A DNA stretch of 56,720 nucleotides, taken from IMG/VR virus record IMGVR_UViG_3300045911_000181, positions 1 through 56,720 of that record; one strand, given 5' to 3'. This DNA comes from a virus. Lineage: Duplodnaviria; Caudoviricetes. A model generated the notes under the pieces. That model saw only the letters and a list, made by a program, of their open reading frames with translations, had not been told where the DNA came from and searched no databases. Positions 2,732 to 18,583 of the stretch are shown here, one piece after another (position 1 is the stretch's first letter; each line of letters opens with the position of its first letter). The translations under genes and the position numbers were made by a program.

Positions 2732-2781
2732 CGTCTATATACCTTTTGGATGCCGCATGGCGGGTCCATAGGAGATAGATC

Positions 2782-3213: not shown

Positions 3214-3216
3214 CCC

Positions 3217-3261
3217 CGCGCGGGCGTGCTCACGCGGGTGCGCCCGCGCAACCCATAAATA
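3217..3261 (+). promoter_or_regulatory. GC-rich hairpin followed by late promoter
   Basis: GCGCGGGCG...CGCCCGCGC stem, then CATAAATA at 3254-3261, 6 nt before ATG 3268. Confidence 0.55.
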
Positions 3262-3267
3262 CGTTCG

Positions 3268-3869
3268 ATGCTCAGCTTTCAATCTTTTCTAGCCGAAGTG
3301 TCGAACGCGGAAGCGACCGTCATCAATCTTCTTCGTCTGGCAGATCGCCCCGGAACCCCACACGAAGGGGAAATCGCCTTGGCGCAAGCCAAGAAGCTGG
3401 CCGCTTGCGCGCCAAGATGAACGACCAACCGGCACGCCCGTCGTCTTCCAGTGGCGGCTACGATCCGCGCAAGAGTGAAGGCGAAGAAGCTGTCTTCGCT
3501 ATGTGGGAAGCATCCATCCGCGATGCCGACGACCATCACCACGGCTTCCAGTTCGTCAAAGAAGCCCGTCAAGGTTCGGACAAATACCGGATCTACAAGA
3601 GTTCCAAGTACCCCGAATTCGAACTTCGCATCTTCCTCTATCACTTCGAACTGTGGAAGAAAGACGTGGAGATCGCCGCCGGAACCGGCAGTGGCCGTTT
3701 CGGTCCTTTCCGATTGGTCCTCATCATGATGGACTACATCAAACGGATCACGGCATGGGTCGAACAAGTCCGGGACATCGCAGAGAAGGCCGGGTACGTC
3801 GTCTTCAAGGAACCCGCCGGGCACAACGGACTTCCTTCCGGCCTTTGGGTTTCTCTTCAGCTTCGTTGA
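3268..3869 (+). pseudogene. frameshifted putative internal head protein with DUF2786-like N-terminus
   Basis: 3268-3420 reads MLSFQSFLAE...LLRLADRPGTPHEGEIALAQAKKLA and continues in another frame (3405-3869); the paralog at 3888-5298 is continuous here. Confidence 0.6.
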
Positions 3870-3887
3870 AGTCTTGAAACGATTTCA

Positions 3888-5298
3888 TCACTCATCCTTC
3901 GGTTCGTTGAATTTGGCCTTGAACTGGTTCAACGCTTTGAGAAGTTCTTCGGCGGTGTGGCCGTCCTTCAGCGTCAATGTGCTGGCACTTCCCATGCCCA
4001 TGTTCCAATGCTTCTGAAGCGACCAGCGGCCCGTTTTCGGGTCCACCACGGCGAAGTACTTGCCTCCCTTACTGCTGAAGTATTCCTTCGTCGGGTCGGG
4101 ACGATCCACCACTTTATCATTCGGACGGAATTCAAACTGGCTCAGCATATTGACGATCTTGTCGAAGCCCATCTCAGCCTTTTTCATCAAGACCGACAAA
4201 GACCGCTCAAGCGATTCCGAATCCTTACCGTGGGATTTGTCACCCAACAACGCCTTGATGTCGTGAGCGGGCCGCATACCGCCGCCAGCGCTATCTTTAC
4301 GGACAAACTCAGCCGTAATCATCCACCAGACTTCATCATCCTTTTTCATTGCGCCGCGCATCTTGTTCGGGCCGAATGTAACGCGGAGCATTTCCACGGT
4401 GTTCGACCAGATGTGCTGATTGCCTTGCTTGTCGAAAGGACGGAATCCGAAACTGGTCAGAACCTTGACCATCTTGTTGATTTCGTCGTGAACCGAGAAC
4501 GCGGCTTCACCACTCTTACGCTTGGTGGTCACCCACTTCTCAAAGGCTTGGGGTCCCTTGTTCTTCTGGTCGAAGCGCTTGGTGTCCAGTTTCCACTTGT
4601 TCGAAACGCTGCCACCCTGACGGGTTTCGTGCCACCATGCGCCATCCGGCCCGACGATCAGCCGGTAGGGGTCACTGACCATTTCCCGGTACGACTCACC
4701 GGTGCTGGCGGGCTTGAGGACGTATCCGTGCTTCTCAGCTACCCGGACAACCGCTTCAGCTTCAGGTGTCAGCTTTTGAGCGTTGTTGTATGCTTTCTGT
4801 TCCTTCTCCCGTTGTTCGGCGTCCCGCTTGACCTTCAAGCCCTTCCAATCCACGGAACGAAGCGCACCGATCAGGTCTTGAGCGTTTGTGCTCTTCGCCA
4901 GCACGTCATCCTTCGAATAGCCGCCGGGACGACCGGTCGGGTCCGCATGAACCAGATACCACATGATCGGGCGTTCCTTCTCACCTTGGATCGGGAGCAC
5001 CACCAAAACAAACGTACCGTCATGTGAGACACCCCACACAACGACTTCCGACCCGAACTGAGCATAGGTGGTGCCGGAACGCATCCGGTCACCCTTCCCG
5101 TTATGCCGCGCGCCGGGCACGTGGCTCATGATGGTATTGATTTCGACGAACAGCCGGTCAGCGGGATGAGTGGATGATGAATTCGACGGTGCCCGGCGAA
5201 CACTCTGTTGTTTCATCATCGAACGGGCAACTTCAAGATCGATGTTGCTCTTCTTCGCAAGGGCGGTGGCTTGTGCCAAAGCAACTTCGCCTTCGTGG
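3888..5298 (-). CDS. large hypothetical protein, paralog of 3268-3869, native N-terminus apparently lost
   Basis: HEGEVALAQATALAKK matches HEGEIALAQAKKLA of the convergent gene; upstream sequence belongs to another ORF. Confidence 0.6.
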
Positions 5299-5439
5299 CA
5301 CCCGAAACTTGCGCCGAACGAAATTTCCGTATCCCCGGTCAAACTTTCCAAGGTAGACAGTCGCGTAGGGATCGGTCGGTAGTGCAAAGGCCGGGATCGC
5401 CGCGACGATTGGCAGAGCGAACATTTGCCGTCGTGTCAT
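5233..5439 (-). CDS. protein with Tat-like signal peptide, probably truncated
   Basis: MTRRQMFALPIVAAIPAFA: twin-arginine, hydrophobic core, AFA cleavage motif. Confidence 0.5.
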   Translation of the reverse strand: MTRRQMFALPIVAAIPAFALPTDPYATVYLGKFDRGYGNFVRRKFRVPRRRSCFGTSHRPCEEEQHRS

Positions 5440-5461
5440 ATTTCTACTTAGGTAAACGTTT

Positions 5462-5577
5462 CCACCCGGCTTAACGTACCGGGTGATGAGGACTGCCACC
5501 GCGCGTTAGGCAATCCAACGTCGGACTGTTAATGGAATGTCCGCGCACCGATTGATCGATCACTCAATCAACCATCT
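5462..5577 (-). ncRNA. candidate structured small RNA downstream of Ro60 (possible Y-RNA analogue or leader RNA)
   Basis: TGnTAGACT -10 at 5584-5589; UUGAUUGA-GUGA-UCGAUCAA hairpin; CGGAC/GUCCG and CGUUGG/CUAACG stems; CACCCGG/CCGGGUG hairpin; G-U pairs favour the minus strand. Confidence 0.5.
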
Positions 5578-5614
5578 GAAATCAGTCTATCATGCAAAGG
5601 GAAGACTGAAAAAC

Positions 5615-5641
5615 AAAAAGGCCGGACCCGAAGGCCCGGCC
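5615..5641 (-). terminator. Rho-independent terminator after Ro60 (repeated element, copy 1)
   Basis: GGCCGGGCC-TTCG-GGTCCGGCC-TTTTT. Confidence 0.9.
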
Positions 5642-5660
5642 AGTTTGGTTCCCCGCCTGA

Positions 5661-7322
5661 TTAGGCGGTAGTGGCTTCCGTTTCGTCTTCCGATCCCGCC
5701 CGGCGGCTGGTGCCACCGCGCATGAAATCGGCCAACAGAACCGGCACGTTGGCGTCGAAACCAACGAAGTCCATCATACCCATATCCTTCGGATCGGCGA
5801 TGGAGAACGGCGTCGCAGCCGTGGCGATGACCGCCAGCTTCGCGTTCGGCTTGTTCCGTTCCTTGCGGTACTTCACAAGCGCTTGCGACGGCTGGATGTT
5901 TCCGGCCCAAGTTTCGCTGTCCGTGATTACCGTGAAACAATCGACGTTCAACTTGTTCTGGATGCCATAGATCATCGGCAAGGAGCAATTCGTACCGCCG
6001 CCAAGATTACGATTCGCCTTCTTCGTTGCCGTTTCCAGCGTATCCTTGGCAGTGATCTTGAGATCGACGAATTGCGTGTCGAACCCACGGATGTCGTAGT
6101 TCTTCTCCGTGCGGATGAAGACCATCGCTTGTGCGGCGGCAATCATCGCATGGGTCAGAGCCGTTCCGTTCCAACTCATCGTCATCGAACCGGACAGATC
6201 GATACCGACCAAGAGGTTCTGACCGGTCGGCTCCACGTTGGCGAAGGTTCCGTAGAACGCATCCATCAACGCATCGACAACCGCCGGAACCACCGGCCAC
6301 GAACCGTTACCGCGCTGACCGTGCCCGGCACCGTAGGCACCGTAGGCCAACAACACCTGAAGCGGGTGTACCCGCGACCGGCGCAAGTATTCGGCATCGC
6401 GCAAACGGCTGGTGACCAGCTTCGACGCATCCGACAGCGGGACCAACAGGCCAGACTTCGACATGTTGCCCAAGTTGCGGATCATGGCCGTCAGCGGCAT
6501 CTTTTGCAAGAGCGCTTCCTGAACCGTCGCGTCGTTGAGGAACTGAGTCGGAATCATCTCCCGCGTCAAACCGTAGTCCGACACGATCTTGATGACTTCC
6601 TTGGCCGAAGTCGCCTTCTTAGCCAACTCAACGCCGTCGATCACACGGGACACATCCGGCTTGTACTCACCCTTGGCCGCGTAACGATAGATCGCGGAGC
6701 GAACTTCGTCTTCCGGCTTCGGGTGAGCCAAACGGAGAATGTCGCGCTGTGCCCATCCCTCACGCTGCTGGTACTTCGCCAACTGGTAGGCCAGATCGCG
6801 CGGCGACTTGACCGCGTACCAGTCCTTCACGGCGCGGGCCAGAACAGCGCCCCAACCGCGAAGCGAAGTCGCGTAGGAAATGAACGAGAACAGATGCGTG
6901 CCCGTGCGCGCGACCACCGGCAACTTCGACGCCGCGTACTGGCGCGTCTCAATGACCGGGGAGTCGGTCGGGGACATGGCAAGTGCCAGCGCAAACAACG
7001 CCGGATCATTCTTCGGTGCCCGGCCCGCGTCGCTGATGCCAGCGATCACATCGACCGTGCGCTTGCCGTCTTCCTTCAAGCACGCAATCACGTTCTTGGC
7101 GTGCTCACGGGTCAGCTTTTCCGCCGATCCACCACTGGCGTAGTAGGCCGGGTTCTCAGACCCAAGGATCAGGAAGCGCTCCAAGAGCGTCCACTTGTCA
7201 ACGGTGAAGACATATCCACCGTGGGCGTTTTGCGCCATTTCATTCTCACGACCCGGAATCGGCTGATTCTGCGGGGTCGTCTTCCGGCTTGCGCCGTGCA
7301 AGCTATAGATGTTCTTTGCCAT
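5661..7322 (-). CDS. Ro60/Rsr TROVE-domain RNA-binding protein with C-terminal VWA domain
   Basis: NAHGGYVF, LERFLILGSE, RTGTHLF, KYQQREGW..RDILRLAHPK, MPLTAMIRNLG, VHPLQVL, DLSGSM, GGGTNCSLP, TDSETWAG, GFDA. Confidence 0.95.
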   Translation of the reverse strand: MAKNIYSLHGASRKTTPQNQPIPGRENEMAQNAHGGYVFTVDKWTLLERFLILGSENPAYYASGGSAEKLTREHAKNVIACLKEDGKRTVDVIAGISDAGRAPKNDPALFALALAMSPTDSPVIETRQYAASKLPVVARTGTHLFSFISYATSLRGWGAVLARAVKDWYAVKSPRDLAYQLAKYQQREGWAQRDILRLAHPKPEDEVRSAIYRYAAKGEYKPDVSRVIDGVELAKKATSAKEVIKIVSDYGLTREMIPTQFLNDATVQEALLQKMPLTAMIRNLGNMSKSGLLVPLSDASKLVTSRLRDAEYLRRSRVHPLQVLLAYGAYGAGHGQRGNGSWPVVPAVVDALMDAFYGTFANVEPTGQNLLVGIDLSGSMTMSWNGTALTHAMIAAAQAMVFIRTEKNYDIRGFDTQFVDLKITAKDTLETATKKANRNLGGGTNCSLPMIYGIQNKLNVDCFTVITDSETWAGNIQPSQALVKYRKERNKPNAKLAVIATAATPFSIADPKDMGMMDFVGFDANVPVLLADFMRGGTSRRAGSEDETEATTA

Positions 7323-7361
7323 GTTATTGACCTCTTTTCCGCACGAACTACATCGTGTTTA

Positions 7362-8033
7362 CTACTCCTGTTCTTCTTCCAAACTACGCATCACATCTTC
7401 GAAAGGAACCAATTCGGCCCGCCCTTCTTCGACTTCTTTGATGCGCTCTTTCATTTCTGCCAGAAATTCTTCGTTCTGTTCGGGACCGCCGTGAAAGCTG
7501 ATGTCCCAATAGATCGCGTCAAGAAACTCCAACAGACTGAAAACTCTTTTTCCCGTCAGCACTTCTTCGGTCCAGTTCCGGCGGATCGTAAACTTCTCAT
7601 CGATCACCACCGGGATATGCGCCAACTGGTACATGGGTGAATACGAAACGGCCCATCTTTCCCCATTGGCATCCACTCCGATGAAGTCCGTACACAGGTT
7701 GAAATCTTTCTCTTCCTTGTGATCGAACACTTCACCGTAGGAACTCACGACCAGCTTCACTAACGGTTCATCCAGATCCTTACGCGGCTCACGGGCCTGT
7801 GCATGGAATTCATCGATTGCCCCACACCATGCATAATGTGCAACAACTTCCTTCAGAGTCGGATGTTGATCCACAATCGCAAAAATCTGGCCCAACGTCA
7901 CGCCGTCGTCGATTTGCACGCGACACCGAAGGTCGGTCAATCGAAACGGCTTTTCAACATAATCCTTCTTCTCCTTCCCGTCCCACTCATACGCCGCCAA
8001 GCGGTCGTGGTGGAACACAACGTAATCGCTCAT
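7362..8033 (-). CDS. hypothetical protein
   Basis: 223-aa ORF coupled to its neighbours, genome-typical codon usage. Confidence 0.7.
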   Translation of the reverse strand: MSDYVVFHHDRLAAYEWDGKEKKDYVEKPFRLTDLRCRVQIDDGVTLGQIFAIVDQHPTLKEVVAHYAWCGAIDEFHAQAREPRKDLDEPLVKLVVSSYGEVFDHKEEKDFNLCTDFIGVDANGERWAVSYSPMYQLAHIPVVIDEKFTIRRNWTEEVLTGKRVFSLLEFLDAIYWDISFHGGPEQNEEFLAEMKERIKEVEEGRAELVPFEDVMRSLEEEQE

Positions 8034-8470
8034 GTTGGTTCGTATATCTCCAACCCCGGCATGAAGCCAAGGGAATCCACAATCATGGGTCTAACGACAG
8101 ACCATTGAAGTCCGCCTAAGCCACAACCGATTGCCGGAATTGCAAGACTGGAAATCTCATGATCCTTGCACCAATCAGCAAGGGCCACCAGACCAGTTTC
8201 AATCCACTCTATCTGAGAGGGGTTTCGCCAGTGATCCTTGGTCGCAAAGCATGCGACCCATTTTGGCGGTGGGGTGGTGTCATGCTGAGGCAACACAAGG
8301 ATGTTGCCCGGAAAAAGCGTTTTTGGTTCAGCACAAGCATGACGATATGAATTTAGCACACCCGGAAACCGATTTGCAAACTTTTTTGCTAATCCGGCTC
8401 CCATTACACCAAAACAGTTCACCGGATTCACCCAAACTTGAGCTTGGGACCGGAACATGTCTCCCGGCAT
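8030..8470 (-). CDS. macrodomain ADP-ribose hydrolase (DarG/TARG1-like)
   Basis: GDMF, VNPVNCFGVMGAGLA, FATKDHWR, SLAIPAIGCGLGGL.W. Confidence 0.9.
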   Translation of the reverse strand: MPGDMFRSQAQVWVNPVNCFGVMGAGLAKKFANRFPGVLNSYRHACAEPKTLFPGNILVLPQHDTTPPPKWVACFATKDHWRNPSQIEWIETGLVALADWCKDHEISSLAIPAIGCGLGGLQWSVVRPMIVDSLGFMPGLEIYEPT

Positions 8471-8889
8471 CACTCTAACGCCTTCAACTGTTTCAACAAC
8501 TCTTGCCGCTTCCGTTCCTTGTCGTCCGCCGGGCGCACCGGCACCGTGAGCACGCGGAAGTCCGTGACCCACACACCGGCGTCGCCACTACACAAGCCAC
8601 TGAAGTTCGACTTGGTGTAGGTGACTTCAATTTCCTGCTGGCCTTCCATCACTTCCAGCAACCGCTTATACAACGCTTCATCTTTCACGCTGAAGTGAAA
8701 TGCCGTTCCGTTGACACCACTGCCGCCATTGAAGCCGCCCCGGACCAGTTCACCTTCGTAGGTGTCACAGATCATTCCGTACTGGCCCATCTTGACGACT
8801 TGACCGATCTTCTTTCCATCACCGCTCTTGATGCCGTATCCACAGCCGACCAAGAACAATCCCATCACCGCAACAATGAAGTATCGCAT
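8470..8889 (-). CDS. lipoprotein
   Basis: Lipobox LVGC after a hydrophobic signal. Confidence 0.75.
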   Translation of the reverse strand: MRYFIVAVMGLFLVGCGYGIKSGDGKKIGQVVKMGQYGMICDTYEGELVRGGFNGGSGVNGTAFHFSVKDEALYKRLLEVMEGQQEIEVTYTKSNFSGLCSGDAGVWVTDFRVLTVPVRPADDKERKRQELLKQLKALE

Positions 8890-8918
8890 ACCTCATTGTC
8901 CATCCACTACCATACACG

Positions 8919-8962
8919 CAAAAACAGAAACGCCCCGGCGGAACTCACCGGGGCGTTCGTTT
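8919..8962 (-). terminator. Rho-independent terminator
   Basis: AACGCCCCGG...CCGGGGCGTT stem followed by a T-rich tail on the minus strand. Confidence 0.75.
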
Positions 8963-8985
8963 GCCGGGAACCAGTCCCGACCGCT

Positions 8986-9348
8986 TCACTTCGTTGTCGT
9001 CGTTGTGATGAAACCCGAAGTGGCTGGAGTATTTGTGCCAGTCGTCGTACCAATGATTTGGTTCGGCTCACACAAAGTCCAACGCTCCCATTTGTTCCAA
9101 GGGAAATATGGCTTCCACGGAATCGGCTGAACCGGCACCGGCACAGCGACCGGCGGCACCGGCACAGCGACCGGCGGCACCGGCACAAACTGTACTTTGT
9201 TTTTCCCCTTGACTTCCACGATCTTGATCTTCTCAACAACCTTCTGTTTGACTTGCACCTTGACGGTGTTCGTCTCTTGGTCGAAGAAAACCTGTGCGTC
9301 GCTTGCGCCTTCGATCTGAATCTTCAATCCGTTGATGGTGACTTCCAT
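8986..9348 (-). CDS. hypothetical protein with Pro/Val-rich repeats
   Basis: 120-aa ORF abutting the VWA gene stop; GGAGG RBS. Confidence 0.7.
   Translation of the reverse strand: MEVTINGLKIQIEGASDAQVFFDQETNTVKVQVKQKVVEKIKIVEVKGKNKVQFVPVPPVAVPVPPVAVPVPVQPIPWKPYFPWNKWERWTLCEPNQIIGTTTGTNTPATSGFITTTTTK
9130..9187. repeat. 21-bp coding tandem repeat (VPVPPVA)
   Basis: ACCGGCGGCACCGGCACAGCG repeated about 2.7 times. Confidence 0.85.
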
Positions 9349-10026
9349 TTACTTCCTCCGACCATTGACACCGCCGCCGGTAGTCGTCGTGAACGACACG
9401 TTATTCAATGCAGCTTCGTCCACGTCCGCCGTCAGATTCACCGAACGCTCGAACCCGGACAGGCCCTTTGACACATTCGACGTATAGGTCCCACGGATCG
9501 CACTGGTCGCATACATCGCGCCCGCCGTGTTCGCCGATGCATAGTTCACCGAATTCGCGATGTTGATGCTGGATGCAGCCGCCGCCGCGTCCATATCCGC
9601 GCCGAAATAGGTGAAGCCCCATCCTTGCTTCTGCCGGATGTCAATCAATGCCTTGATCGCTTCATGGCTGAAATTCTTCGAAGAGTTCTCCGCGCCGTCC
9701 GTGAAAATGTACACAAGGACATTCTGTTCGCCCTCTTCCGCCGTGTCAATCCGCATGCCGACCGCATCGTACAGCGCGGTCATGCCATTCGGCTTATAGT
9801 CGGCTGTCCCGATTTCCTTGACTTCACTTAGCGGCTTGTTGGCGAACACCACCGTTGCTTCGGAAGAAAACTTGGTGAGACTGACCGTGTACTCAACGTC
9901 CTTGGTCTTCTCTTCCTTCCGCATTTCCTGAATCTGTTCGTTGAATCCATTGATGACAGTCTTCTGTTGACCTTCCATCGAACCGGACTCATCCAAGATA
10001 AACTCAACTCTGATCTTGTTCTTCAT
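9349..10026 (-). CDS. VWA domain protein
   Basis: MIDAS ILDESGSM, GMTALYDA, FTDGAENSS, WGFTYFGA; AGGAG RBS before ATG 10026. Confidence 0.9.
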   Translation of the reverse strand: MKNKIRVEFILDESGSMEGQQKTVINGFNEQIQEMRKEEKTKDVEYTVSLTKFSSEATVVFANKPLSEVKEIGTADYKPNGMTALYDAVGMRIDTAEEGEQNVLVYIFTDGAENSSKNFSHEAIKALIDIRQKQGWGFTYFGADMDAAAAASSINIANSVNYASANTAGAMYATSAIRGTYTSNVSKGLSGFERSVNLTADVDEAALNNVSFTTTTGGGVNGRRK

Positions 10027-10058
10027 TCTCCTTCCTTGGGTGCCCATGCCACCCTATG

Positions 10059-10244
10059 TTATGTAGACTGTCCACCGGCGGTCTTCGTGCGCAAAGTGGG
10101 ATTATTTTCCAACTTTTCACGCAGCCGCCGGGCGGCGTCCAACTTGAGGAAGGCAATTTCATAGTTGCCGTTCTTCTTGGCGGACTCCGCTTCGAGTTCA
10201 CACCGGTCAATTTCAGCTTGAATCAAATCACGATCCATGACCAT
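10059..10244 (-). CDS. small helical protein (UVR-like coiled coil)
   Basis: AKKNGNYEIA...ARRLREKL pattern. Confidence 0.5.
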   Translation of the reverse strand: MVMDRDLIQAEIDRCELEAESAKKNGNYEIAFLKLDAARRLREKLENNPTLRTKTAGGQST

Positions 10245-10267
10245 CTCCCAAACCCCTGAAATGAACT

Positions 10268-10672
10268 TTAACTACTGGTGGTGCTGACTTCGGAAAACGA
10301 GTTCGGCGGTGTGTGATCGAAGTCGTAGTCCGTAACCTCATCATGCGCAAACATCGCCATCCGGTAGTGGTGACGATCCTTGTGCATGATGATGCGAATG
10401 ATGATATTGTCGTCGCTGAAATTCGGCAAACAGTCTACAAGGAACCCGTCCACAATTTCCTTTTGCTTCGCCAGATTCAATACCGACGTGAGCGGTGTCT
10501 TGAGATCAGAGCATGAAAAGGAATTGGTGAACCAACCAAGTTGAGCCGCCCGTTGAACCACTCCGAAGAGAGTGTCCCGCAATCCGTTTAAGTCATTGAA
10601 CTCTGACGGAATTGACCACAACTCTTCGGGATCAGCACCCACAACAACATCATTTGATAATCGAAAAGCCAT
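10268..10672 (-). CDS. hypothetical protein
   Basis: 134-aa ORF with GGAG RBS. Confidence 0.6.
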   Translation of the reverse strand: MAFRLSNDVVVGADPEELWSIPSEFNDLNGLRDTLFGVVQRAAQLGWFTNSFSCSDLKTPLTSVLNLAKQKEIVDGFLVDCLPNFSDDNIIIRIIMHKDRHHYRMAMFAHDEVTDYDFDHTPPNSFSEVSTTSS

Positions 10673-10696
10673 TGACTCCCTTCATCGTAGCGTGGC

Positions 10697-10903
10697 CTAT
10701 CCCACGCGAAAACTGATAACCTTTCCCTCTTGTACCGTGAAGGTCACACGGTTTTGTTTCACATCATTGGTTAGCGGGACCGGCATACCGGGTTGCACCA
10801 CGCGCACTTCCATTCCTAGTTGTGTCGCTTTTGCGGTGGCTTCCGTGATCGGCTGGCCCATGAAATTCTGTTTGACGGCAATCGCCAAGGCTTCATTCAG
10901 CAT
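10697..10903 (-). CDS. serine protease inhibitor, potato inhibitor I / I78-like
   Basis: GQPITEA...VRVVQPG...LTNDVKQNRVTFTV..GKV...VG. Confidence 0.7.
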   Translation of the reverse strand: MLNEALAIAVKQNFMGQPITEATAKATQLGMEVRVVQPGMPVPLTNDVKQNRVTFTVQEGKVISFRVG

Positions 10904-11141
10904 TTTCTTCCTCTTCGTTTTCTTCTTCTGGTTCCCGGCTGAGCCAAAGAACTACCACCACACTGATGAATACGAATGATCCTGACCATGCTGCAATCAC
11001 CACAACAGGATTCAATGCGAACGTGTGGAACGACCAGCGGACAGCAACAAAGAGTCCGGTGAGTAGCAGGATCAGTAGATTGATGCCACCAAAGACGGCA
11101 ACGTATTCAGCAATGCGTGAACGGATTTTTTCGGCTTGCAC
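10893..11141 (-). CDS. small membrane protein
   Basis: Two TM segments and an acidic tail. Confidence 0.65.
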   Translation of the reverse strand: MQAEKIRSRIAEYVAVFGGINLLILLLTGLFVAVRWSFHTFALNPVVVIAAWSGSFVFISVVVVLWLSREPEEENEEEENAE

Positions 11142-11214
11142 GTGATGAATTTAGACACGCCAGAAGACGGCATCCCAATCATATTCAGTCTGTTGTGCAA
11201 TGCTCGGTTCGGTG

Positions 11215-11575
11215 GATATGGAATCTACCTAGCGCGGGCTACTCCGCTAAGTCGATTCCCTATCGCGTCTGTCGTGCTTCGGACAGGCGGTCGCCCTTGA
11301 TCTTGGTGGTCGCTACCAGTGGTTCTCTATCGGTGGCTCCGGGGTCATACCGCATTTTTCCAAGCATCCCCATTGAAGGGGTCAGGTATGGGTCCGGTGA
11401 CTGACGACACTCCACACGCCGCTCTACATGGTCTGTCACGGGTATTCCCGTCGTTTGCCAAAAGCCATGCAGCCGGGTCAATTCCCGACGAACTGCGGTC
11501 CTACGTGCCGGGCACCTTTCGGTGCCGATATCCTGATTAGGCTTGGGGTGACTGAGAACGTCTTGATCGCCTGAT
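11215..11575 (+). ncRNA. candidate large structured non-coding RNA (~360 nt)
   Basis: Four nested long-range helices and about 8 local hairpins in a ~480-nt region without a credible ORF; G-U pairs favour the plus strand. Confidence 0.7.
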
Positions 11576-11625
11576 ACCTATATAGCATAGAGGTTCGATG
11601 TTCAGAACCTAAAACGGCGAAGTCC

Positions 11626-11957
11626 ATGAAAACATTCCAAAGATTCCTTCGAGAGTCCTACGAACTCTTGCCCGGCACCCTCTTGCTGATCGTTCAAGGT
11701 GGCGGGTTCAACCGTCGTATCCAGTATGGCGTAACGACGGGGCGGGTGGTTTCGTCAAGCCCGGCGACATCATCCAAAACCATTTGCAATTGGATGGTCT
11801 GCCCGGCGGCTCAGTGATTGAATCCACGTTGTCGGGTGCGGACGGCCAGTACAAAAAGACGGATTCGTTCAAATGGACCAAGGTCGGATCACCGACCGGC
11901 ACGAAATTTGACTCGTTTCACTTTGACACATCGCTTAAATACAAGTGGGTCAAATAA
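11626..11957 (+). pseudogene. frameshifted putative internal head protein
   Basis: MKTFQRFLRE start; near 11745 the plausible protein continues in another frame (FVKPGDIIQNHLQLDGLPGGSVIES...YKWVK*). Confidence 0.55.
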
Positions 11958-11960
11958 TCT

Positions 11961-12515
11961 ATGCCAATGGACAGCACCGCCGAACAACTGATCGGCATCA
12001 TCAAGCGTCAGCCGTCGAATCCGAATTTCCTGAACGCGCACCGGTTCCGCATGGTGCTTCATCGCACGCCGTCGATGATCTATTTCATGCAAGAAGTCAA
12101 TCTGCCGGGGATCAGCACTGGCGCGCCGATTCAGCCTACACCGTTCGTTGATATCCCTCATCATGGCGATAAGTTGGTGTTCGAAGATTTGACGGTCAGT
12201 TTCGCGGTGGATGAGGACATGAAGAACTACCGGGAAATCCAACAGTGGTTGTACGGATTGACTTTCCCGCAAAGTTTCGAACAGCACGCCAATTTGGTGC
12301 AAGGCATGCATAACCGGTATTCCGACATTTTGCTGGTGATTCTCAACAGCAACTATAATCCGCAACACTATGTCATGTTTCGGCAAGCGTGGCCGTCTTC
12401 GCTTGGATCAATCCAGTTCAACAGCAAGGATCAGGATGTGGTGGTCCAGCCGGTGTCGGTGACGTTCAAGTATGCGTTTTATGAATTTTTGGATATCGGT
12501 GACGTGTCATCATAG
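11961..12515 (+). CDS. 3: tail completion and sheath stabilizer (T4 gp3-like)
   Basis: NPNFL...F, QEVNLPGI, GDKLVFEDL.V.F.VDEDM.NY.EI..WL, AWPSSL, VTFKY; gp3-uvsY-uvsW synteny. Confidence 0.9.
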   Translation: MPMDSTAEQLIGIIKRQPSNPNFLNAHRFRMVLHRTPSMIYFMQEVNLPGISTGAPIQPTPFVDIPHHGDKLVFEDLTVSFAVDEDMKNYREIQQWLYGLTFPQSFEQHANLVQGMHNRYSDILLVILNSNYNPQHYVMFRQAWPSSLGSIQFNSKDQDVVVQPVSVTFKYAFYEFLDIGDVSS

Positions 12516-13135: not shown

Positions 13136-13606
13136 ATGGTACTGGAAGACTACGCGGCTCTGGCAGACAAAGAGCTTCGGATCGATGTGACGCGGCTGGT
13201 CGAAGAGGCCGCGTCCATCGCTTATCTCCACGGTCGGTGGATGAAGTTCTACGAAGAAGAGAGGAGGCAGTTCCGCCGCATGAAGCGCGAAGTCGCCAAG
13301 ATGTACACGAAGCGCTTCAACTTCTATCGCGGCACCGGCGACCCGGATGACTTCCCGAATGAACGTCCGCCCGATCTGATCCTTGACACTTCGATGAAAA
13401 CCGGTACGAAGAAACGTAGTCACACGCCGGTCAATGTCGTCGAAATGTACATGGAATCCGACGATTTGTATCAGGACATGAAAGACAAACTGGACGATCA
13501 GGAAATCCTTCTGGACTATCTCGAACAATGTCTGAAGGGCATCGCTTTCCGCCGGAACCAGATCGACACCATCAACGAAACCCGCAAGTTCGAGTTTGGA
13601 AGGTGA
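13136..13606 (+). CDS. uvsY: recombination mediator UvsY
   Basis: Helical protein, FYRG.GDP, YMESD, I..RKFE.G C-terminus; position between gp3 and uvsW. Confidence 0.8.
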   Translation: MVLEDYAALADKELRIDVTRLVEEAASIAYLHGRWMKFYEEERRQFRRMKREVAKMYTKRFNFYRGTGDPDDFPNERPPDLILDTSMKTGTKKRSHTPVNVVEMYMESDDLYQDMKDKLDDQEILLDYLEQCLKGIAFRRNQIDTINETRKFEFGR

Positions 13607-14369: not shown

Positions 14370-15902
14370 GTGGTCGTAATCCGCAAAGTCAACGAATCCT
14401 ATCTTCAGGTTGACGCCGATCCCGGAATCGTTCGAGAGATCAGCGAAGTTCTAACCTTCGAAGTCCCGAACGCACATCACATGCGCCGCATGATGGAGAA
14501 GCGCGGACGCAAGATGTACAACAATTGGGATGGTCGCATCAAGCTGTTGGACTATCGCAATGGCGCGGCCTACCTTGGTCTTCACAGATTCATCCGGCAA
14601 TACTGCGAAGAGAACAATTACGAAGTTCAGTACGAAGACAACTTCGATTCTGAAAATCCGTTTTCCTTGTGGGAAGCGCGAAAGTTCTTCGAGTCTCTGA
14701 AGCTGTCTGTACAGGGAAAGCCGCTGGATGTGCGCGACTATCAAGAGCGCGCGTTTGTGCATGGCGTTCAGCGCCGCCGGGCTATCCTCGTTTCCCCAAC
14801 AGCGTCCGGCAAGTCCCTCATCATCTATTTGCTCTTGCGGTATCTCCAAACGTACAAGATGGGAGATCCCGCGCGCGGGGACGCGGGGAAGATTCTTGTC
14901 ATTGTTCCGACTACATCGCTGGTCGAACAGATGTACTCCGACTTCGCCGATTACAGCGCGGCTGACCCGGATTGGAACGTCGAAGAGAATGTCCACCGGG
15001 TTCACTCCGGGGCCGAACGAAACACGGATCTTCCGATCACGGTGACGACGTGGCAGTCCATCTATCGCATGGATGAAGAGTGGTTCTTACAGTTTCACGG
15101 AGTCGTCGGTGATGAAGCCCATCAGTTCGATTCCAAGTCGCTCAGCAAGATCATGTCTTCGCTGACGAACGCGGCCTATCGTTTCGCCACGACCGGCACA
15201 CTGAAGGGTTCGATGGTCAATGAAATGGTGCTGGAAGGTCTGTTTGGTCAGGTATACAACGTCACCACGACGCGCGAACTCATGGACGCCGGGACGGTCG
15301 CGGATCTGACGATCAAAGCACTGGTGCTTCGGTACTCCGATGAGGATTGCCAGATCATCAAGGGTGCCGACTTCCATGCGGAGCGGGACTACATTTCCGC
15401 CCACACGACCCGCCGCAACTTCGTCCGCAATTTGGTTCTCAGCCTGAAAGGAAACACGCTGGTCCTTTTTGCGCTGGTGGACAAACAGGGAAAACCGCTG
15501 TATGAGTCGATCATGGAGCGGGTGGAACCGGGCCGGAAGGTCTTCTACGTTTCCGGGGAAACCGAAGCTGACGACCGGGAACAGGTGCGCCAGATCACCG
15601 AACAGGAAGAGAATGCCATCATCATCGCCAGCTATGGCGTCTTTTCGACCGGCGTCAATATCCGCAATCTGGACAATCTGGTATTCGCCGCCGGGACCAA
15701 ATCCAAGATTCGGACCCTTCAGTCCATCGGGCGCGGTCTTCGCAAGAGCGACCGGAAATCGACTGTTACGGTGTTCGACATCGTGGACGATTTGAGCGTT
15801 AAGTCCAAGAAAAACTTCGCTTTACTGCATTTCGCCGAACGTCTGGCGTTCTACGCGGCGGAACAGTTCCGGTACAAGATTTACCGGATTGACCTGTCGT
15901 GA
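14370..15902 (+). CDS. uvsW: DNA helicase UvsW
   Basis: RDYQ, SPTASGKS, VPTTSLVEQM, DEAH, STGVNI, QSIGRGLR; TATAAACA at 14357-14364. Confidence 0.95.
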   Translation: MVVIRKVNESYLQVDADPGIVREISEVLTFEVPNAHHMRRMMEKRGRKMYNNWDGRIKLLDYRNGAAYLGLHRFIRQYCEENNYEVQYEDNFDSENPFSLWEARKFFESLKLSVQGKPLDVRDYQERAFVHGVQRRRAILVSPTASGKSLIIYLLLRYLQTYKMGDPARGDAGKILVIVPTTSLVEQMYSDFADYSAADPDWNVEENVHRVHSGAERNTDLPITVTTWQSIYRMDEEWFLQFHGVVGDEAHQFDSKSLSKIMSSLTNAAYRFATTGTLKGSMVNEMVLEGLFGQVYNVTTTRELMDAGTVADLTIKALVLRYSDEDCQIIKGADFHAERDYISAHTTRRNFVRNLVLSLKGNTLVLFALVDKQGKPLYESIMERVEPGRKVFYVSGETEADDREQVRQITEQEENAIIIASYGVFSTGVNIRNLDNLVFAAGTKSKIRTLQSIGRGLRKSDRKSTVTVFDIVDDLSVKSKKNFALLHFAERLAFYAAEQFRYKIYRIDLS

Positions 15903-16179: not shown

Positions 16180-16764
16180 ATGGAGCGCAAGAAAAATCAG
16201 TACGTGGACAACAAAAAGCTATACGACGCCCTTGTCGAATGGCTGAAGGACCGAAAGACGGCACAGAAGAACAAGGCGGCGCAAATGCCACCGCTTCCCG
16301 ATTACATCGGTGAGTGTATCTTGTTGATGGCTAACCGGTTAGCTCAAAAGGCCAACTTCGTCAACTACACTTTCAAGGACGATATGATCGGCGACGCGAT
16401 GGAAAACTGTCTCCGGTATCTTCACAATTTCAATCCGACCCGGAGCACGAACGCCTTTGCGTATGTGACACAGATCCTTCGCAACGCTTTCGTTCGCCGG
16501 ATTACGCGGGAACGTCGGAACTCCTACACTAAGGCCGTGCTCATCAGCCACGGCATGCCGGGCTACACCGTTCAGGATGGCGATGAGAACGACTACACGA
16601 ACACCTACGTGGACTTCCTTCAGGAGAATGTCACGGATGTGATTGAGAAGTTCGAGTCCGCCAAACAGCGGAAGAAAGCCCGCCAACAGAAGAAGGTCGG
16701 TCTGGAAAACTTCTTCGTGGAAGAAGCGGCGGCTACCGAAGTCGTCGGGGCCGGGACGCGATAA
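16180..16764 (+). CDS. 55: late-transcription sigma factor gp55
   Basis: YVDNK, PDYIGEC, NFVNYTFKDDMIGD..ENCLRY.HNFNP..S.NAFAY.TQI..NAF.RRI. Confidence 0.95.
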   Translation: MERKKNQYVDNKKLYDALVEWLKDRKTAQKNKAAQMPPLPDYIGECILLMANRLAQKANFVNYTFKDDMIGDAMENCLRYLHNFNPTRSTNAFAYVTQILRNAFVRRITRERRNSYTKAVLISHGMPGYTVQDGDENDYTNTYVDFLQENVTDVIEKFESAKQRKKARQQKKVGLENFFVEEAAATEVVGAGTR

Positions 16765-17276: not shown

Positions 17277-17417
17277 ATGTCGGACCCACACTCGATCCAT
17301 TTTGCCTTTGTTTTTGGCCTGATCGTACTCGTTTCGCATGGTCCGGCGGTGATGGAGTTCACTTCCAAACTTTGCCGCAAGGTGAAGGGAAAGGCCCGAC
17401 TATCGAGGTTTGAATGA
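17277..17417 (+). CDS. small membrane protein (46 aa)
   Basis: Hydrophobic segment then basic tail; ATGA overlap with gp47. Confidence 0.45.
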   Translation: MSDPHSIHFAFVFGLIVLVSHGPAVMEFTSKLCRKVKGKARLSRFE

Positions 17418-18583
17418 AGATTGCTTTGCTTGCGGATACCCATTTCGGTGTCCGAAACGACACAGCGGCGTTCTACGACACGTTCGACAATTTCTACACC
17501 AACACATTCTTCCCGACGTTAGACAAACGCCGCATCAAGCACATCTTGCATGTCGGCGACGTGTTCGACCGGCGGAAGTACATCAACTTTCAGACCCTAG
17601 AGTGGACCCGTAAGATGTTCTTCGAACCCATGCGCGCGCGGGGTATCGACATGAAGGTCATCTTGGGCAATCACGATGTCTACTACAAGTCCACCAACCG
17701 GCTCAATGCTGTGTCTTTACTGTTAGGCGAATACCTGTCCGGCGGACGGGCCAGACTTGGTTCCGGGGACCGGGTGGAAGCGGATAGTGCGATGGCGCTA
17801 TCGAACGTGGAAAACGTTTCGATCTATGACCAGCCGTGCGAAACCAACATCTTCGGTATGGACTGTGTGGTGATGCCGTGGATCAATGCTGAGAACTATG
17901 ACGCCGCGATGACCATTGCGAAGAGCGCACGCGGTTCGAAGCCGGTGTTTGGTCATCTGGAACTGACCGGGTTCAACATGTACCGGAACAGTGTATGCGA
18001 TCACGGGCTGGACCCGAAGATTTTCACACGCTTCGACATGGTACTCACCGGGCATTTCCATCATCAGTCACAGAAGGGCGGCATCAAGTATCTTGGCGCT
18101 CCCTACGAAATGATCTGGTCGGATTATGACGATGCGCGCGGTTTCCACATCCTAGACACCGAAACATTGGAACTGGAGTTCATCAAGAACCCCGACCAGA
18201 TGTTCTACAAGGTTCGTTACGACGATTCCAACGACGTACCGGGCCGCTCCGCGCCGGGGCCGGATATTGAGCCGTCGCCGAACTGGAAAGGCAAATACAT
18301 CAAGATCATCGTCATGCGGAAGAAAGATCCGTATGCCTTCGATCAGTTCATGGATGCGGTGTGGGCGACACAGCCGCATGATGTGACCCTTGTCGAAGAC
18401 GAAACCCTTGACATCGACAAGGTGCTTGAAGGCAAGGATGAAACGCTCATCATTGATGACACGCCGACCGTATTGAATGCCTATGTGGACGCTATCAATT
18501 CACAGGACGTGAATAAGCCCGCATTGAAGAAACTGATGTTGGAACTGTACACAGAAGCCGTGGCCGCTAGCGGGCGCGACTAG
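17414..18583 (+). CDS. 47: recombination endonuclease subunit gp47 (Mre11-like)
   Basis: DTHFG, GDVFDRRK, GNHD, GHLE, GHFH, YLGAPY. Confidence 0.95.
   Translation: MKIALLADTHFGVRNDTAAFYDTFDNFYTNTFFPTLDKRRIKHILHVGDVFDRRKYINFQTLEWTRKMFFEPMRARGIDMKVILGNHDVYYKSTNRLNAVSLLLGEYLSGGRARLGSGDRVEADSAMALSNVENVSIYDQPCETNIFGMDCVVMPWINAENYDAAMTIAKSARGSKPVFGHLELTGFNMYRNSVCDHGLDPKIFTRFDMVLTGHFHHQSQKGGIKYLGAPYEMIWSDYDDARGFHILDTETLELEFIKNPDQMFYKVRYDDSNDVPGRSAPGPDIEPSPNWKGKYIKIIVMRKKDPYAFDQFMDAVWATQPHDVTLVEDETLDIDKVLEGKDETLIIDDTPTVLNAYVDAINSQDVNKPALKKLMLELYTEAVAASGRD

What the first reader, a model, noticed from the sequence alone, without database searches (positions are those of the whole stretch)
11215..11575. 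Large nested multi-branch RNA structure (~360 nt) in the longest ORF-free gap
Seen: four long-range helices nest in order: GGCGGUCG 11286-93/UGAUCGCC 11564-71; GUUCUC 11322-27/GAGAAC 11554-59; CCAAGC 11360-65/GCUUGG 11541-46; GUCAGG 11381-86/CCUGAU 11532-37. Inside are GUGACUGAC 11397-405/GUCUGUCAC 11431-39, ACGGG-UAUU-CCCGU, GCAG/CUGC around CGGG/CCCG, GGCACC-UUUC-GGUGCC and CCCC/GGGG. A long 5' hairpin spans 11215-11264. Wobble pairs read as G-U on the plus strand, as expected for selection on RNA. I found no RNase P, tmRNA, tRNA, SRP or intron signature. A local hairpin (11266-89) competes with the outermost helix. Inference: a possibly undescribed large phage ncRNA or ribozyme.
Basis: partly seen in the sequence, partly recalled or inferred. 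Interest (0 to 1): 0.85.

Follow-up and report, generated by a model that had tools for sequence, protein, structure and literature searches.

The report
Conserved structured non-coding element in phage
A roughly 420-base non-coding stretch between two diverging gene blocks of an uncultured T4-like phage is better conserved than its neighbouring genes and keeps its hairpins through paired mutations, so it is probably an undescribed structured RNA whose strand and job are still open.

Summary

- **Setting:** the 484-nt gap 11142-11625 separates leftward and rightward genes of a T4-like phage.
- **Homologues:** two lineages were found, at 95% and 77% identity. The flanking coding DNA is only 84-86% and 63-66% identical.
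- **Not coding:** single-base indels and an even spread of changes over codon positions rule out a conserved ORF.
- **Structure:** consensus folds on either strand keep 15-16 pairs through changes on both sides, against 5-6 in shuffles (0 of 500). Local hairpins carry the signal.
the four nested long-range helices show no covariation and are broken in relatives. A different closing helix (11165-69/11559-63) has two compensated pairs.
- **Weak points:** single-sequence folding z-scores are weak (-1.4 plus, -2.0 minus). The strand is unresolved, with a slight lean to minus.
- **Known families:** no match to Rfam, tRNA/tmRNA, YrlA or a phage YrlA model built here.
- **Context:** the site is the genome-wide GC-skew minimum. 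It heads a leftward gene block that ends with a phage Ro60 gene and a terminator.

Best reading: a new structured RNA, probably a leader. Rivals: an origin-associated transcript, a plus-strand RNA, or a DNA-level element.

The parts
11156..11573 (.). Whole conserved structured element (about 418 nt); the strand is unresolved, with a slight lean to minus
   Evidence: Homologous over the whole gap in L002/L003 (95%) and L082/L083 (77%). Identity peaks here against the flanks. There are 15-16 compensated pairs against 5-6 in shuffles.
11156..11169 (.). 5' (plus) strand of the candidate closing helices (11156-60 and 11164-69)
   Evidence: Pairs with 11559-73. The stretch 11165-69/11559-63 changes AGACG/CGUCU to AGGCA/UGCCU in L083, giving 2 compensated pairs. 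Long-range stems with 2 compensations arise by chance about 0.5 times per shuffled alignment, so this helix is tentative.
11559..11573 (.). 3' (plus) strand of the candidate closing helices
   Evidence: See the partner entry.
11215..11264 (.). Long hairpin H1
   Evidence: z -3.6 (plus) and -4.2 (minus) in the window. In L083 it folds much better on the minus strand, -20.3 against -14.7 kcal/mol. The U-A pair becomes A-U in L002 and C-G becomes U-A in L083.
11266..11289 (.). Hairpin 2 (CGUCUGUC/GACAGGCG)
Evidence: 8 pairs kept in all three sequences apart from one gap cell.
11303..11319 (.). Hairpin 3 (UUGGU/ACCAG)
   Evidence: Changes to UUGCC/GGCAG in L083, giving 2 compensated pairs.
11339..11397 (.). 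Branched hairpin domain with inner stems 11352-53/11364-65 and 11368-71/11378-81
   Evidence: The outer stem is invariant. Each inner stem has 1 compensated pair: G-C to A-U in L002 and C-G to U-A in L083.
11427..11469 (.). Hairpin domain with inner hairpin 11438-42/11447-51
   Evidence: 4 compensated pairs in L083 in the outer stem and 2 in L002 in the inner stem. The inner-stem changes recur in a contig of RNA library X18. One X18 contig joins 11398 to 11468, skipping this arm.
11468..11500 (.). Invariant 33-nt block including hairpin CGGG-UCAAUU-CCCG (11474-87)
   Evidence: Identical in all three lineages. A 21-mer from it occurs only in the two relatives' contigs in viral contigs and nowhere in genome contigs.
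11511..11526 (.). Hairpin GGCACC-UUUC-GGUGCC (the loop reads GAAA on the minus strand)
   Evidence: 1 compensated pair. L083 has one A.C cell on plus, which is G.U on minus. The change 11522 G>A in X17 and X18 gives C.A on plus and G.U on minus.
11578..11585 (.). Conserved palindromic box CTATATAG
   Evidence: Unique in the window and conserved in all three lineages. Read on the minus strand it is TGnTATATA, and L083 adds TTGAAA 17 nt upstream (my reading). The promoter scanner calls no promoter in any of the three homologues.
11148..11160 (.). Conserved left box AATTTAGACACGC (minus strand: GCGTGTCTAAATT, ending 6 nt before the GTG of the 82-aa ORF)
   Evidence: Invariant in the three lineages and not repeated in the window. 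It resembles the TCTAAATA motifs found upstream of other genes.
10893..11141 (-). First leftward gene (82 aa, hydrophobic with an acidic tail)
   Evidence: ORF conserved in L002 (89 aa) and L083 (85 aa). No Pfam or PHROG family matched.
11626..11817 (+). First rightward gene, cut short in the window (63 aa against 144 aa in L002)
   Evidence: Only synonymous changes at its start. L002 has 103 extra bases after the position matching 11752 and a 144-aa ORF. L083 also has the long form.
5661..7322 (-). Phage Ro60/Rsr orthologue, the last gene before the leftward terminator
   Evidence: TROVE 4.9e-38 and Ro60 vWA 3.2e-52; phrog_850. It sits at the same relative place in G001 and G002.
5608..5642 (-). 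Terminator-like hairpin followed by a U-run just after the Ro60 stop codon
   Evidence: Read from the sequence and from the alignments. The scanner was not run on this stretch.

Best explanation
The gap holds one conserved, single-copy, non-coding structured element of about 420 nt (about 11156-11573). It is built from seven to eight hairpin domains and may be closed by pairing of its two ends.

The most likely form is a structured RNA of a family not yet described. My preferred reading has it transcribed leftward on the minus strand from the conserved TGnTATATA box at 11579-87. It would then be the long untranslated head of the leftward gene block: the 82-aa protein, further small proteins, vWA, macro domain and Ro60, ending at the terminator-like hairpin near 5.6 kb.

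As a leader it would act in cis on elongation, stability or translation of that block. Alternatively it could be cut out as a stable RNA.

- **Shown:** conservation above the neighbouring genes, absence of coding signal, compensated hairpins, single copy, and position.
- **Inferred:** that it acts as RNA, its strand, its start, and its function.
For: **Conservation**
- Identity is 95% to L002/L003 and 77% to L082/L083. The flanking coding DNA is 84-86% and 63-66% identical.
- Per-100-nt identity to L083 is 0.75-0.87 at 11200-11499, against 0.34-0.75 outside the gap.
- Against G002, the element (0.94-0.97) and the Ro60 gene (0.91-0.97) are the best-kept parts of the leftward block.

**Not coding**
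- There are 16 indel sites of 1-2 nt within 11164-11596. Changes fall 9/8/7 over the codon positions.
- The synonymous to non-synonymous count in the one open frame (4/14) matches the other frames.

**Structure**
- Minus fold: 97.4% of cells paired and 15 pairs changed on both sides, against 5.1 +/- 1.9 in shuffles (0 of 500). Slid controls give 0-2.
- Plus fold: 16 such pairs against 5.9 +/- 1.9 (0 of 500), with slid controls at 0.
- Column shuffles give alifold z -4.12 (minus) and -2.73 (plus).
- Six stems of at least 5 bp carry at least 2 compensations, against 0.61 on average (maximum 3) in 200 shuffles. Four of them are local, against 0.085.

**Lean to the minus strand**
- Single-sequence z is -2.2, -1.3 and -3.2 on minus, against -0.75, -1.4 and -1.15 on plus. 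The structure conservation index is 0.88 against 0.82.
- H1 is more stable on minus in all three sequences.
- One invariant loop reads GAAA on the minus strand.
- The A.C cells at 11514/23 (L083) and 11515/22 (X17, X18) become G.U on minus.
- The first closing pair lies where a start 6-7 nt after the TATATA box would fall (my reading).

**Copy number and expression**
- One copy is found in the 86%-complete relative and one in the 96%-complete relative.
- Contigs from RNA libraries of two studies (X15 and X17; X18) lie on 11188-11718. This is a weak hint only.
Against: - Only three distinct full-length sequences exist, so each helix rests on one or two events. Many compensations come as adjacent doublets, which templated mutation in DNA quasi-palindromes could also produce.
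- Single-sequence folding is barely better than shuffles.
- The strand is not resolved. Shared helices show 1 G-U against 3 A-C cells. Hairpin 2 and the 11339-97 stem hold U.G pairs that favour plus. Covariation is equal on both strands.
- The promoter scanner finds no sigma-70-type promoter and no terminator in the gap in any of the three homologues. TATATA lacks the conserved final T.
- No end of a transcript is shown. Contigs cannot give strand, ends or level. The runs were chosen because they hold this stretch, and DNA can be present in RNA libraries.
- No regulatory switch, such as a terminator/antiterminator pair or start-site masking, was identified.
Confidence: 0.4

Rival explanations
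1. The element belongs to a replication origin. A transcript started in the gap, or single-stranded DNA hairpins, would prime or organise initiation. This would resemble the RNA-primed T4 origins or the structured ColE1 RNA II primer (the ColE1 comparison is from recall).
For: - In the 96%-complete relative G002 the genome-wide minimum of cumulative GC skew is at 76-78 kb. The element lies at about 77.4-77.8 kb (the core, model R1, at 77,564-77,758). In the window the minimum is at about 10-11 kb.
- The element sits where transcription diverges, 1.5 kb from uvsY and 2.8 kb from a UvsW-like helicase.
- The T4 review (PMC3016281, passages read) makes three relevant points. oriE, oriF = ori(uvsY) and oriG lie near transcription-divergence points that coincide with compositional shifts. 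T4 origins are thought to form RNA primers. UvsW unwinds origin R-loops.
- Equal constraint on both strands fits a DNA-level or two-strand role.
Against: - The T4 minimal origins are about 100 bp, made of a promoter plus an A+T-rich unwinding element without specific sequence.
- Here the core is G+C-rich, 0.59 at 11335-11530, and no A+T-rich tract stands out.
- No iterons or direct repeats were found, and no promoter was called.
- GC skew in such phages also follows gene orientation, so the minimum may only mark the strand switch.
Confidence: 0.2
2. The element is a plus-strand RNA. It would be either a stand-alone non-coding RNA or the leader of the rightward baseplate-type genes.
For: - Covariation is as strong on plus as on minus.
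- U.G pairs in hairpin 2 and in the 11339-97 stem are tolerated only on plus.
- Two plus-only alternative stems keep pairing in all three sequences with 2 compensations each: 11210-15/11448-53 and 11552-56/11601-05.
- RNA-library contigs bridge from the element into the downstream ORF: X16 over 11517-11667 and X18 over 11547-11718.
- The invariant hairpin CGGG-UCAAUU-CCCG resembles a T-arm one base short (compare the sequences).
Against: - Plus-strand z-scores and structure conservation index are poorer.
- The plus fold has more broken cells: 21 against 13.
- No promoter-like sequence is conserved left of 11156. That stretch lies inside or beside the start of the 82-aa gene.
- No terminator lies before 11626.
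- X16 is flagged as probably DNA.
Confidence: 0.2
3. There is no functional folded nucleic acid. The gap would be a conserved double-stranded regulatory region of promoters and protein-binding sites for both gene blocks. Its inverted repeats would be binding sites, kept complementary by templated mutation.
For: - The position is a divergent intergenic region with conserved boxes at both ends.
- Folding energy is near the shuffles.
- Compensations occur in adjacent doublets.
- Neither strand is favoured.
Against: - Conservation spans about 420 nt without a break, far more than promoters and operators need.
- Compensations occur in seven separate helices with loops of 3-40 nt and in a stem 390 nt apart. 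Dimer-binding palindromes do not explain that.
- Pieces of the element occur in RNA libraries.
Confidence: 0.1

Closest known systems
Bacterial/phage Y RNAs (YrlA, Rfam RF02553), partners of Ro60/Rsr
   Same: - The phage encodes a Ro60 orthologue 3.8 kb from the element (4.1 kb in G001 and G002). If the element is on the minus strand, both lie on the same strand in one gene block.
- Y RNAs lie within 4 kb of rsr on the same strand and can be upstream and co-transcribed. Their 5' and 3' ends pair (PMC4201824, passages).
- The element may also be closed by its two ends.
- No ordinary YrlA is detectable in these three phage records.
   Different: - The element is about 418 nt; Y RNAs are 80-130 nt.
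- No match to RF02553 was found.
- No match was found to model R2, built from 14 YrlA-like RNAs that lie beside Ro60 in other viral contigs.
- It has no D-arm, and its T-arm-like loop is one base short.
- The GNCGAA motif is not conserved.
- Nine ORFs lie between the element and Ro60.
- The strand is unresolved.
Large structured RNAs of unknown function found in phages and metagenomes (GOLLD, ROOL)
   Same: The element is large, multi-domain, phage-borne and supported by covariation, with no function assigned. The family names and their phage association are from recall and from the abstract listing.
   Different: There is no sequence or structure match to these Rfam families. The element is known from only three lineages of one T4-like clade, and it is not next to tRNA genes.
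RNA-primed replication origins (T4 oriF/oriG; ColE1 RNA II)
   Same: The element lies at a transcription-divergence and compositional-shift point near uvsY and uvsW. ColE1 RNA II is a structured primer transcript of several hundred nucleotides (recalled).
   Different: The T4 minimal origins need only a promoter and an A+T-rich unwinding element. The element is G+C-rich and structured, and neither a promoter nor an unwinding element was identified.
Cis-acting structured leaders at the head of phage operons (for example HK022 put antiterminator RNA; recalled)
   Same: On the minus-strand reading, the position is directly after a candidate promoter at the head of a 5.5-kb gene block that ends in a terminator-like hairpin.
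   Different: put RNAs are about 70 nt with two hairpins (recalled). No similarity was tested or seen, and antitermination is untested.

Membership tests
Any Rfam 15 family (4227 models) | Match to the family's covariance model | tested here: not met
   There were 0 matches at gathering score in the whole window. Only chance-level hits appeared at E up to 10 in 11000-11800 (E 1.4-9, snoRNA-type) and at E up to 5 in 1-12000.
tRNA / tmRNA | Cloverleaf or tmRNA detected by ARAGORN | tested here: not met
   0 genes were found in the window.
YrlA / Y RNA | Match to the YrlA covariance model (RF02553) | tested here: not met
   No hit over the 69-bit cut-off in G000, G001 or G002. The best hits (23 bits) lie at 130-137 kb in G002 and 156-164 kb in G001, far from the element. 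There was no hit in G000 at E up to 10. The model is weak: 0 of 14 control genomes and 0 of 50 Ro60-bearing viral records pass the cut-off.
YrlA / Y RNA | tRNA-like domain (T-arm GGUUCGAAUCC and D-arm GUAGCUCAGUUGGUAGAGC) | tested here: not met
   Model R2, built from 14 YrlA-like RNAs beside viral Ro60 genes, finds nothing in the element or within 7 kb of Ro60 in the window, L195, L196, L082 or L083.
YrlA / Y RNA | Encoded within 4 kb of Ro60 on the same strand | tested here: inconclusive
   The distance is 3.8 kb in the window and 4.1 kb in G001 and G002. The strand of the element is unresolved.
YrlA / Y RNA | Length 80-130 nt | tested here: not met
   The conserved element spans about 418 nt. 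The size range comes from PMC4201824.
YrlA / Y RNA | Binds Ro60 | not testable with these tools
   This needs co-purification or a gel-shift assay with the phage Ro60.
T4-type R-loop origin (oriF/oriG) | Located at a transcription-divergence and compositional-shift point | tested here: met
   The cumulative GC-skew minimum is at the element in the window and in G002. Genes diverge there.
T4-type R-loop origin (oriF/oriG) | Promoter followed by an A+T-rich unwinding element | tested here: not met
   No promoter was called. The core G+C content is 0.59. No A+T-rich tract or repeats were found.
T4-type R-loop origin (oriF/oriG) | Drives replication on infection | not testable with these tools
   This needs a plasmid replication assay or depth profiling of replicating phage DNA.
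Protein-coding gene | Conserved open frame with an excess of synonymous change | tested here: not met
   There are 16 small indel sites. No frame is favoured, and changes are even over codon positions.

The most novel reading that the evidence does not exclude
The element is a giant, multi-domain RNA partner of the phage's own Ro60 protein. In this phage clade it would functionally replace the small tRNA-like Y RNA. It would be made from the same leftward block as Ro60, a macro-domain protein and vWA proteins, with an RlaP nucleotidyltransferase further left beyond the terminator. It would act as the scaffold or gate of an RNA-repair or counter-defence particle.
Probability: 0.12. Interest if true: 0.85.

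Novelty: new variant of a known kind. Interest (0 to 1): 0.6.

Why it matters
Large structured RNAs with covariation support and no known family are rare, and several of the known ones are phage-borne and still unexplained. This element sits at the main strand-switch and GC-skew minimum of a roughly 200-kb T4-like genome. It heads a gene block that encodes Ro60, a protein whose usual small RNA partner cannot be found in this phage.

Three outcomes would each be useful:
- A leader RNA would point to a new way of controlling an early or counter-defence operon.
- An origin transcript would be the first structured origin RNA in a T4-like phage.
- Binding to Ro60 would widen what a Y RNA can be.

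All three can be tested with a short list of experiments. The claim stays modest because only three lineages were available and no function is shown.

Tried and rejected
**Searches for more homologues: only two further lineages found**
- blastn and nhmmer, with a single sequence and with a profile, over 160 related loci found only L002/L003 and L082/L083.
- Model R1 (196 positions) over 159 sources found only the three known sequences, plus noise at E 0.09-0.86.
- R1 over 78 viral Ro60 loci gave one hit at E 0.28. R1 on G007 gave none.
- Exact patterns in viral contigs found only the two known contigs. The pattern found none in genome contigs.
- The protein-guided scan of genome contigs found none.
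- The distant DNA search of cultured phages found none.
- Contigs encoding the 66-87% Ro60 relatives could not be fetched.

**Ideas tested and dropped**
- Conserved ORF.
- Iterons.
- A repeated promoter motif made of the two end boxes.
- A canonical sigma-70 promoter or terminator in the gap.
- YrlA membership.
- A Y RNA in the 270 nt after Ro60. That stretch holds only the terminator-like hairpin and is conserved at just 0.82-0.86.

**RNA-library contigs**
- No contig of the four runs was laid on 10722-11148. Depth was higher on core contigs of X18 (14.6-24) than on the X18 contigs that run out of the core into the flanks or lie on flanking genes (4.2-6.5).
- I draw no conclusion from either point. 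The runs were picked for holding this stretch, the flanks are less conserved, and conserved cores collapse strains.
- The habitat labels of the runs were not used.

**Tools and papers not available**
- One review (PMC10870794) is not held.
- Supplementary tables of PMC4201824 and of the survey PMC10690425 (seen only in the listing) were not seen. They may list this phage clade or this motif.
Full report
**Setting**

The window is a 56.7-kb viral metagenome record, estimated 31% complete. It comes from a distant T4-like phage.
- It carries a gp19-family tail-tube/baseplate-type protein (11961-12515), UvsY (13136-13606) and a UvsW-like helicase (14370-15902).
- The helicase is at most 46% identical to those of cultured phages: Methylophilales phage Melnitz, Pelagibacter phage HTVC008M and cyanophages.
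- The finding lies in the 484-nt gap 11142-11625. Genes to the left run leftward, starting with an 82-aa ORF at 11141. Genes to the right run rightward, starting at 11626.
- The cumulative GC skew of the window has its minimum there.

**Checking the observation**

The 361-nt stretch as a whole folds little better than dinucleotide shuffles.
- Plus strand: -138 kcal/mol, z -1.44, with 8 of 100 shuffles as good.
- Minus strand: -128.5 kcal/mol, z -2.02, with 3 of 100 as good.

Rfam finds nothing at gathering score in the window and only chance-level hits at E up to 10. ARAGORN finds no tRNA or tmRNA.

**Homologues**

A protein-guided scan of viral contigs with the neighbouring tail-tube-like gene gave two close relatives, L002 and L003. 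Their contigs are 184.6 kb and 224.5 kb. A partial locus, L004, was also found. All other kept loci were at most 42% identical.
- The same scan of metagenome contigs added L082 and L083, whose protein is 64% identical.
- blastn and nhmmer find the whole gap in these four loci and in no other of the 160 loci.
- L002 equals L003, and L082 equals L083, in this region. There are therefore three distinct sequences.
- Identity in the gap is 95% and 77%. The flanking coding DNA is 84-86% and 63-66% identical.
- Per-100-nt identity to L083 is 0.75, 0.84, 0.87 and 0.71 across 11200-11599. The rest of the 1.8 kb compared is at 0.34-0.75.
- A 33-nt block (11468-11500) is invariant.
- The element is single-copy in the 86%- and 96%-complete relatives.

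**Not a gene**

Mechanical ORFs overlap the gap, but none behaves like a gene.
- The alignment has 16 indel sites of 1-2 nt between 11164 and 11596.
- In the one ungapped 166-nt block, one frame is open in all three sequences. Its synonymous to non-synonymous count against L083 (4/14) is like that of the other five frames.
- Changes fall 9/8/7 over the three codon positions.

**Structure**

RNAalifold on the plus alignment predicts 133 pairs, 16 of them kept through changes on both sides. On the minus alignment it predicts 118 pairs, 15 of them kept that way.

| Measure | Plus | Minus |
|---|---|---|
| Cells paired | 95.7% | 97.4% |
| Compensated pairs, observed | 16 | 15 |
| Compensated pairs, partner shuffles | 5.9 +/- 1.9 (0 of 500) | 5.1 +/- 1.9 (0 of 500) |
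| Compensated pairs, slid partners | 0 | 0-2 |
| Alifold z from 100 column shuffles | -2.73 | -4.12 |
| Compensated pairs in those shuffles | mean 6.0, max 10 | mean 6.5, max 11 |

An exhaustive list of stems of at least 5 bp paired in all three sequences holds six with two or more compensations. The mean over 200 shuffles is 0.61 and the maximum is 3. Four of the six are local, against 0.085 in shuffles.

The supported helices, in window coordinates, are:
- 11215-38/11242-64
- 11266-73/11282-89
- 11304-07/11315-18 (2 compensations)
- 11339-51/11385-97, with inner stems 11352-53/64-65 and 11368-71/78-81 (1 each)
- 11427-34/11463-69 (4 compensations), enclosing 11438-42/47-51 (2)
- 11474-77/84-87 (invariant)
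- 11511-16/21-26 (1 compensation and 1 mismatch)
- the long-range 11165-69/11559-63 (2 compensations), next to 11156-60/11569-73

Long-range stems of this quality turn up by chance about once in two shuffled alignments, so the closing helix is tentative.

Its helix e competes with the better-supported 11427-34/11463-69.

Three observations remain unexplained. Two plus-only stems (11210-15/11448-53 and 11552-56/11601-05) and helix e each show two compensations while overlapping other supported helices. They may be chance, or they may be alternative pairings.

**Strand**

The strand is not settled.

*Lean to minus:*
- The z-scores of the three sequences are -2.2, -1.3 and -3.2 on minus, against -0.75, -1.4 and -1.15 on plus. 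The structure conservation index is 0.88 against 0.82.
- Fewer cells are broken on minus: 13 against 21.
- H1 is more stable on minus in all three sequences, markedly so in L083.
- The invariant loop of the 11511-26 hairpin reads GAAA on minus.
- Two A.C-type cells in that hairpin become G.U on minus. One is in L083 and one (11522 G>A) is in contigs of X17 and X18.

*Lean to plus:*
- U.G pairs in hairpin 2 and in the 11339-97 stem.
- The plus-only alternative stems.

In the 80 pairs common to both folds there is 1 G-U cell and 3 A-C cells.

**Ends and signals**

Two boxes are conserved at the edges.
- AATTTAGACACGC (11148-60) ends, when read on minus, 6 nt before the GTG of the 82-aa gene.
- The palindrome CTATATAG (11578-85) is unique in the window.

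Read on minus, the right box is TGnTATATA. L083 adds TTGAAA 17 nt upstream. A start 6-7 nt further on would fall at the first pair of the closing helix. This is my reading of the sequence.

The promoter and terminator scanner finds no promoter in the gap in any of the three homologues. It finds no terminator in the window or L002, and in L083 three terminator-like sites against 0.7 expected, one of them inside the element. There are no iterons.

**Expression**

One search for sequencing runs found the stretch in DNA runs and parts of it in RNA libraries. Four runs were laid on 10600-12400.
- X15 and X17 are metatranscriptomes from one study. Each gave one short contig inside the element: 11188-11415 and 11381-11546.
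- X18 is a metatranscriptome from another study. It gave several contigs over 11200-11718 and some on the right-hand gene.
- X16 is probably DNA.
- X18 repeats the compensated changes at 11438/39 and 11450/51.
- One X18 contig joins 11398 to 11468, that is, it lacks the 11427-69 arm.

Contigs show no strand, ends or level, and the runs were selected for holding this stretch. This is only a weak hint of transcription.

**Context found on the way**

- The leftward block runs from the element through small proteins, a vWA protein, a macro-domain protein and a 553-aa Ro60/Rsr orthologue (TROVE 4.9e-38, Ro60 vWA 3.2e-52). A strong terminator-like hairpin with a U-run follows the Ro60 stop codon.
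- An RlaP RNA-repair nucleotidyltransferase lies further left.
- Ro60 sits at the same relative place in G001 and G002, 4.1 kb from the element.
- Against G002, Ro60 and the element are the two best-conserved parts of the block.
- In G002 the global minimum of cumulative GC skew is at 76-78 kb, where the element lies.

**Testing the Ro60 lead**

Y RNAs, the partners of Ro60, are 80-130 nt. They pair their ends and lie within 4 kb of rsr on the same strand. They were reported in 22 phages (PMC4201824, passages). A jumbo-phage survey also notes phage TROVE proteins with a tRNA-like partner (PMC7824862, passages).
- Rfam's YrlA model finds nothing over its cut-off in the three records, and nothing at all near Ro60 or the element.
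- That model is insensitive. In the first 50 of 78 other Ro60-bearing viral loci searched, 18 records have YrlA-like hits at E up to 1e-5, yet none passes the cut-off.
- From 14 such hits lying in the fetched loci around Ro60, on its strand and mostly within 3 kb of it, I built model R2. It shows the conserved T-arm and D-arm clearly.
- R2 finds nothing in the element or within 7 kb of Ro60 in the window, L195, L196, L082 or L083. There is only a weak hit at 34757-34865.
- R1 finds no relative of the element beside other viral Ro60 genes.
- Of 16 other T4-like records, 1 (G007) has a TROVE protein. It lacks the element.

The element is therefore not a YrlA. A Ro60-partner role remains only a possibility, suggested by position and by the missing Y RNA.

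**Testing the origin lead**

The T4 review (PMC3016281, passages) says that oriE, oriF = ori(uvsY) and oriG lie near transcription-divergence points with compositional shifts. It also says that T4 origins are thought to make RNA primers, and that UvsW removes origin R-loops.
- The position of the element fits this picture.
- The defined minimal origins, however, are a promoter plus an A+T-rich unwinding element.
- The element is G+C-rich (0.59 in its core), structured and without a called promoter.

**Verdict**

This is a real, conserved, non-coding, structured element of about 420 nt with no known family. It is most likely an RNA.

I commit to a leftward structured leader or processed RNA at the head of the Ro60-containing block (0.4). 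The rivals are an origin-associated element (0.2), a plus-strand RNA (0.2) and a DNA-level regulatory region (0.1).

Whether the motif is already listed in large surveys of viral structured RNAs (PMC10690425, seen only in the search listing) could not be checked. Supplements are closed and no sequence look-up exists for them.

Noticed in passing
window 5661-7322 (-), 328-1134 (-), 8030-8572 (-), 9349-10047 (-): The phage encodes a Ro60/Rsr orthologue, an RlaP RNA-repair nucleotidyltransferase, a macro-domain protein and a vWA protein. Together they look like an RNA-repair or counter-defence set. No canonical Y RNA is detectable.
   Followed up: yes
window about 5608-5642 (-): A strong terminator-like hairpin with a U-run lies right after the Ro60 stop codon. 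Near-identical copies of about 30 nt occur at three other places in G002: about 112.3, 122.6 and 169.9 kb.
   Followed up: partly
window 11626-11960 (+): The first rightward gene is 144 aa in L002 and is also long in L083. In the window it stops after 63 aa, because 103 bases present in L002 are missing after 11752, which shifts the frame. This is either a broken gene or an assembly fault.
   Followed up: partly
L197-L246 (viral Ro60 loci), e.g. L228 6796-6922, L200 9225-9537: YrlA-like RNAs with clear T- and D-arms lie beside Ro60 genes in many viral contigs. They score only 29-47 bits against Rfam's 69-bit cut-off: 18 of 50 records at E up to 1e-5, and 0 over the cut-off. Rfam's threshold therefore misses phage YrlA.
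   Followed up: partly
window 1914-1942 (+): A perfect sigma-70-type promoter (TTGACA, 17 nt, TGCTATAAT) ends just before the ORF at 1948-2265. It is the only such match in the window.
   Followed up: no
window 14357, 15904, 42759, 53356 (+); 5439, 42681 (-): Near matches to the T4 late-promoter box TATAAATA, often as TCTAAATA or TATAAACA, lie shortly upstream of several ORF starts. The total count (11) is not above chance (8.5 +/- 2.75).
   Followed up: no
window 16180-16764, 17414-18583, 18593-20305 (+): A small sigma-70 region-2 protein lies here, followed by a metallophosphoesterase and an SMC_N/AAA_23 ATPase. My reading from recall is that these may be a late sigma-like factor and an Mre11/Rad50-type pair (gp47/gp46-like), as in T4-like replication and recombination modules.
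   Followed up: no
window 11398/11468: One contig of RNA library X18 joins 11398 to 11468, skipping 69 nt. A relative may therefore lack the 11427-69 arm of the element. What lies between the two points in that contig is not known.
   Followed up: no
window 34757-34865 (-): A weak match (17.2 bits, E 0.04) to my phage-YrlA model R2 lies inside a long plus-strand ORF. It is probably chance.
   Followed up: no
L191 2787-2934 (+) (G007): The one other T4-like record with a TROVE protein has a weak R2 match with a T-arm-like hairpin just downstream of that gene (14.8 bits, E 0.17).
   Followed up: no
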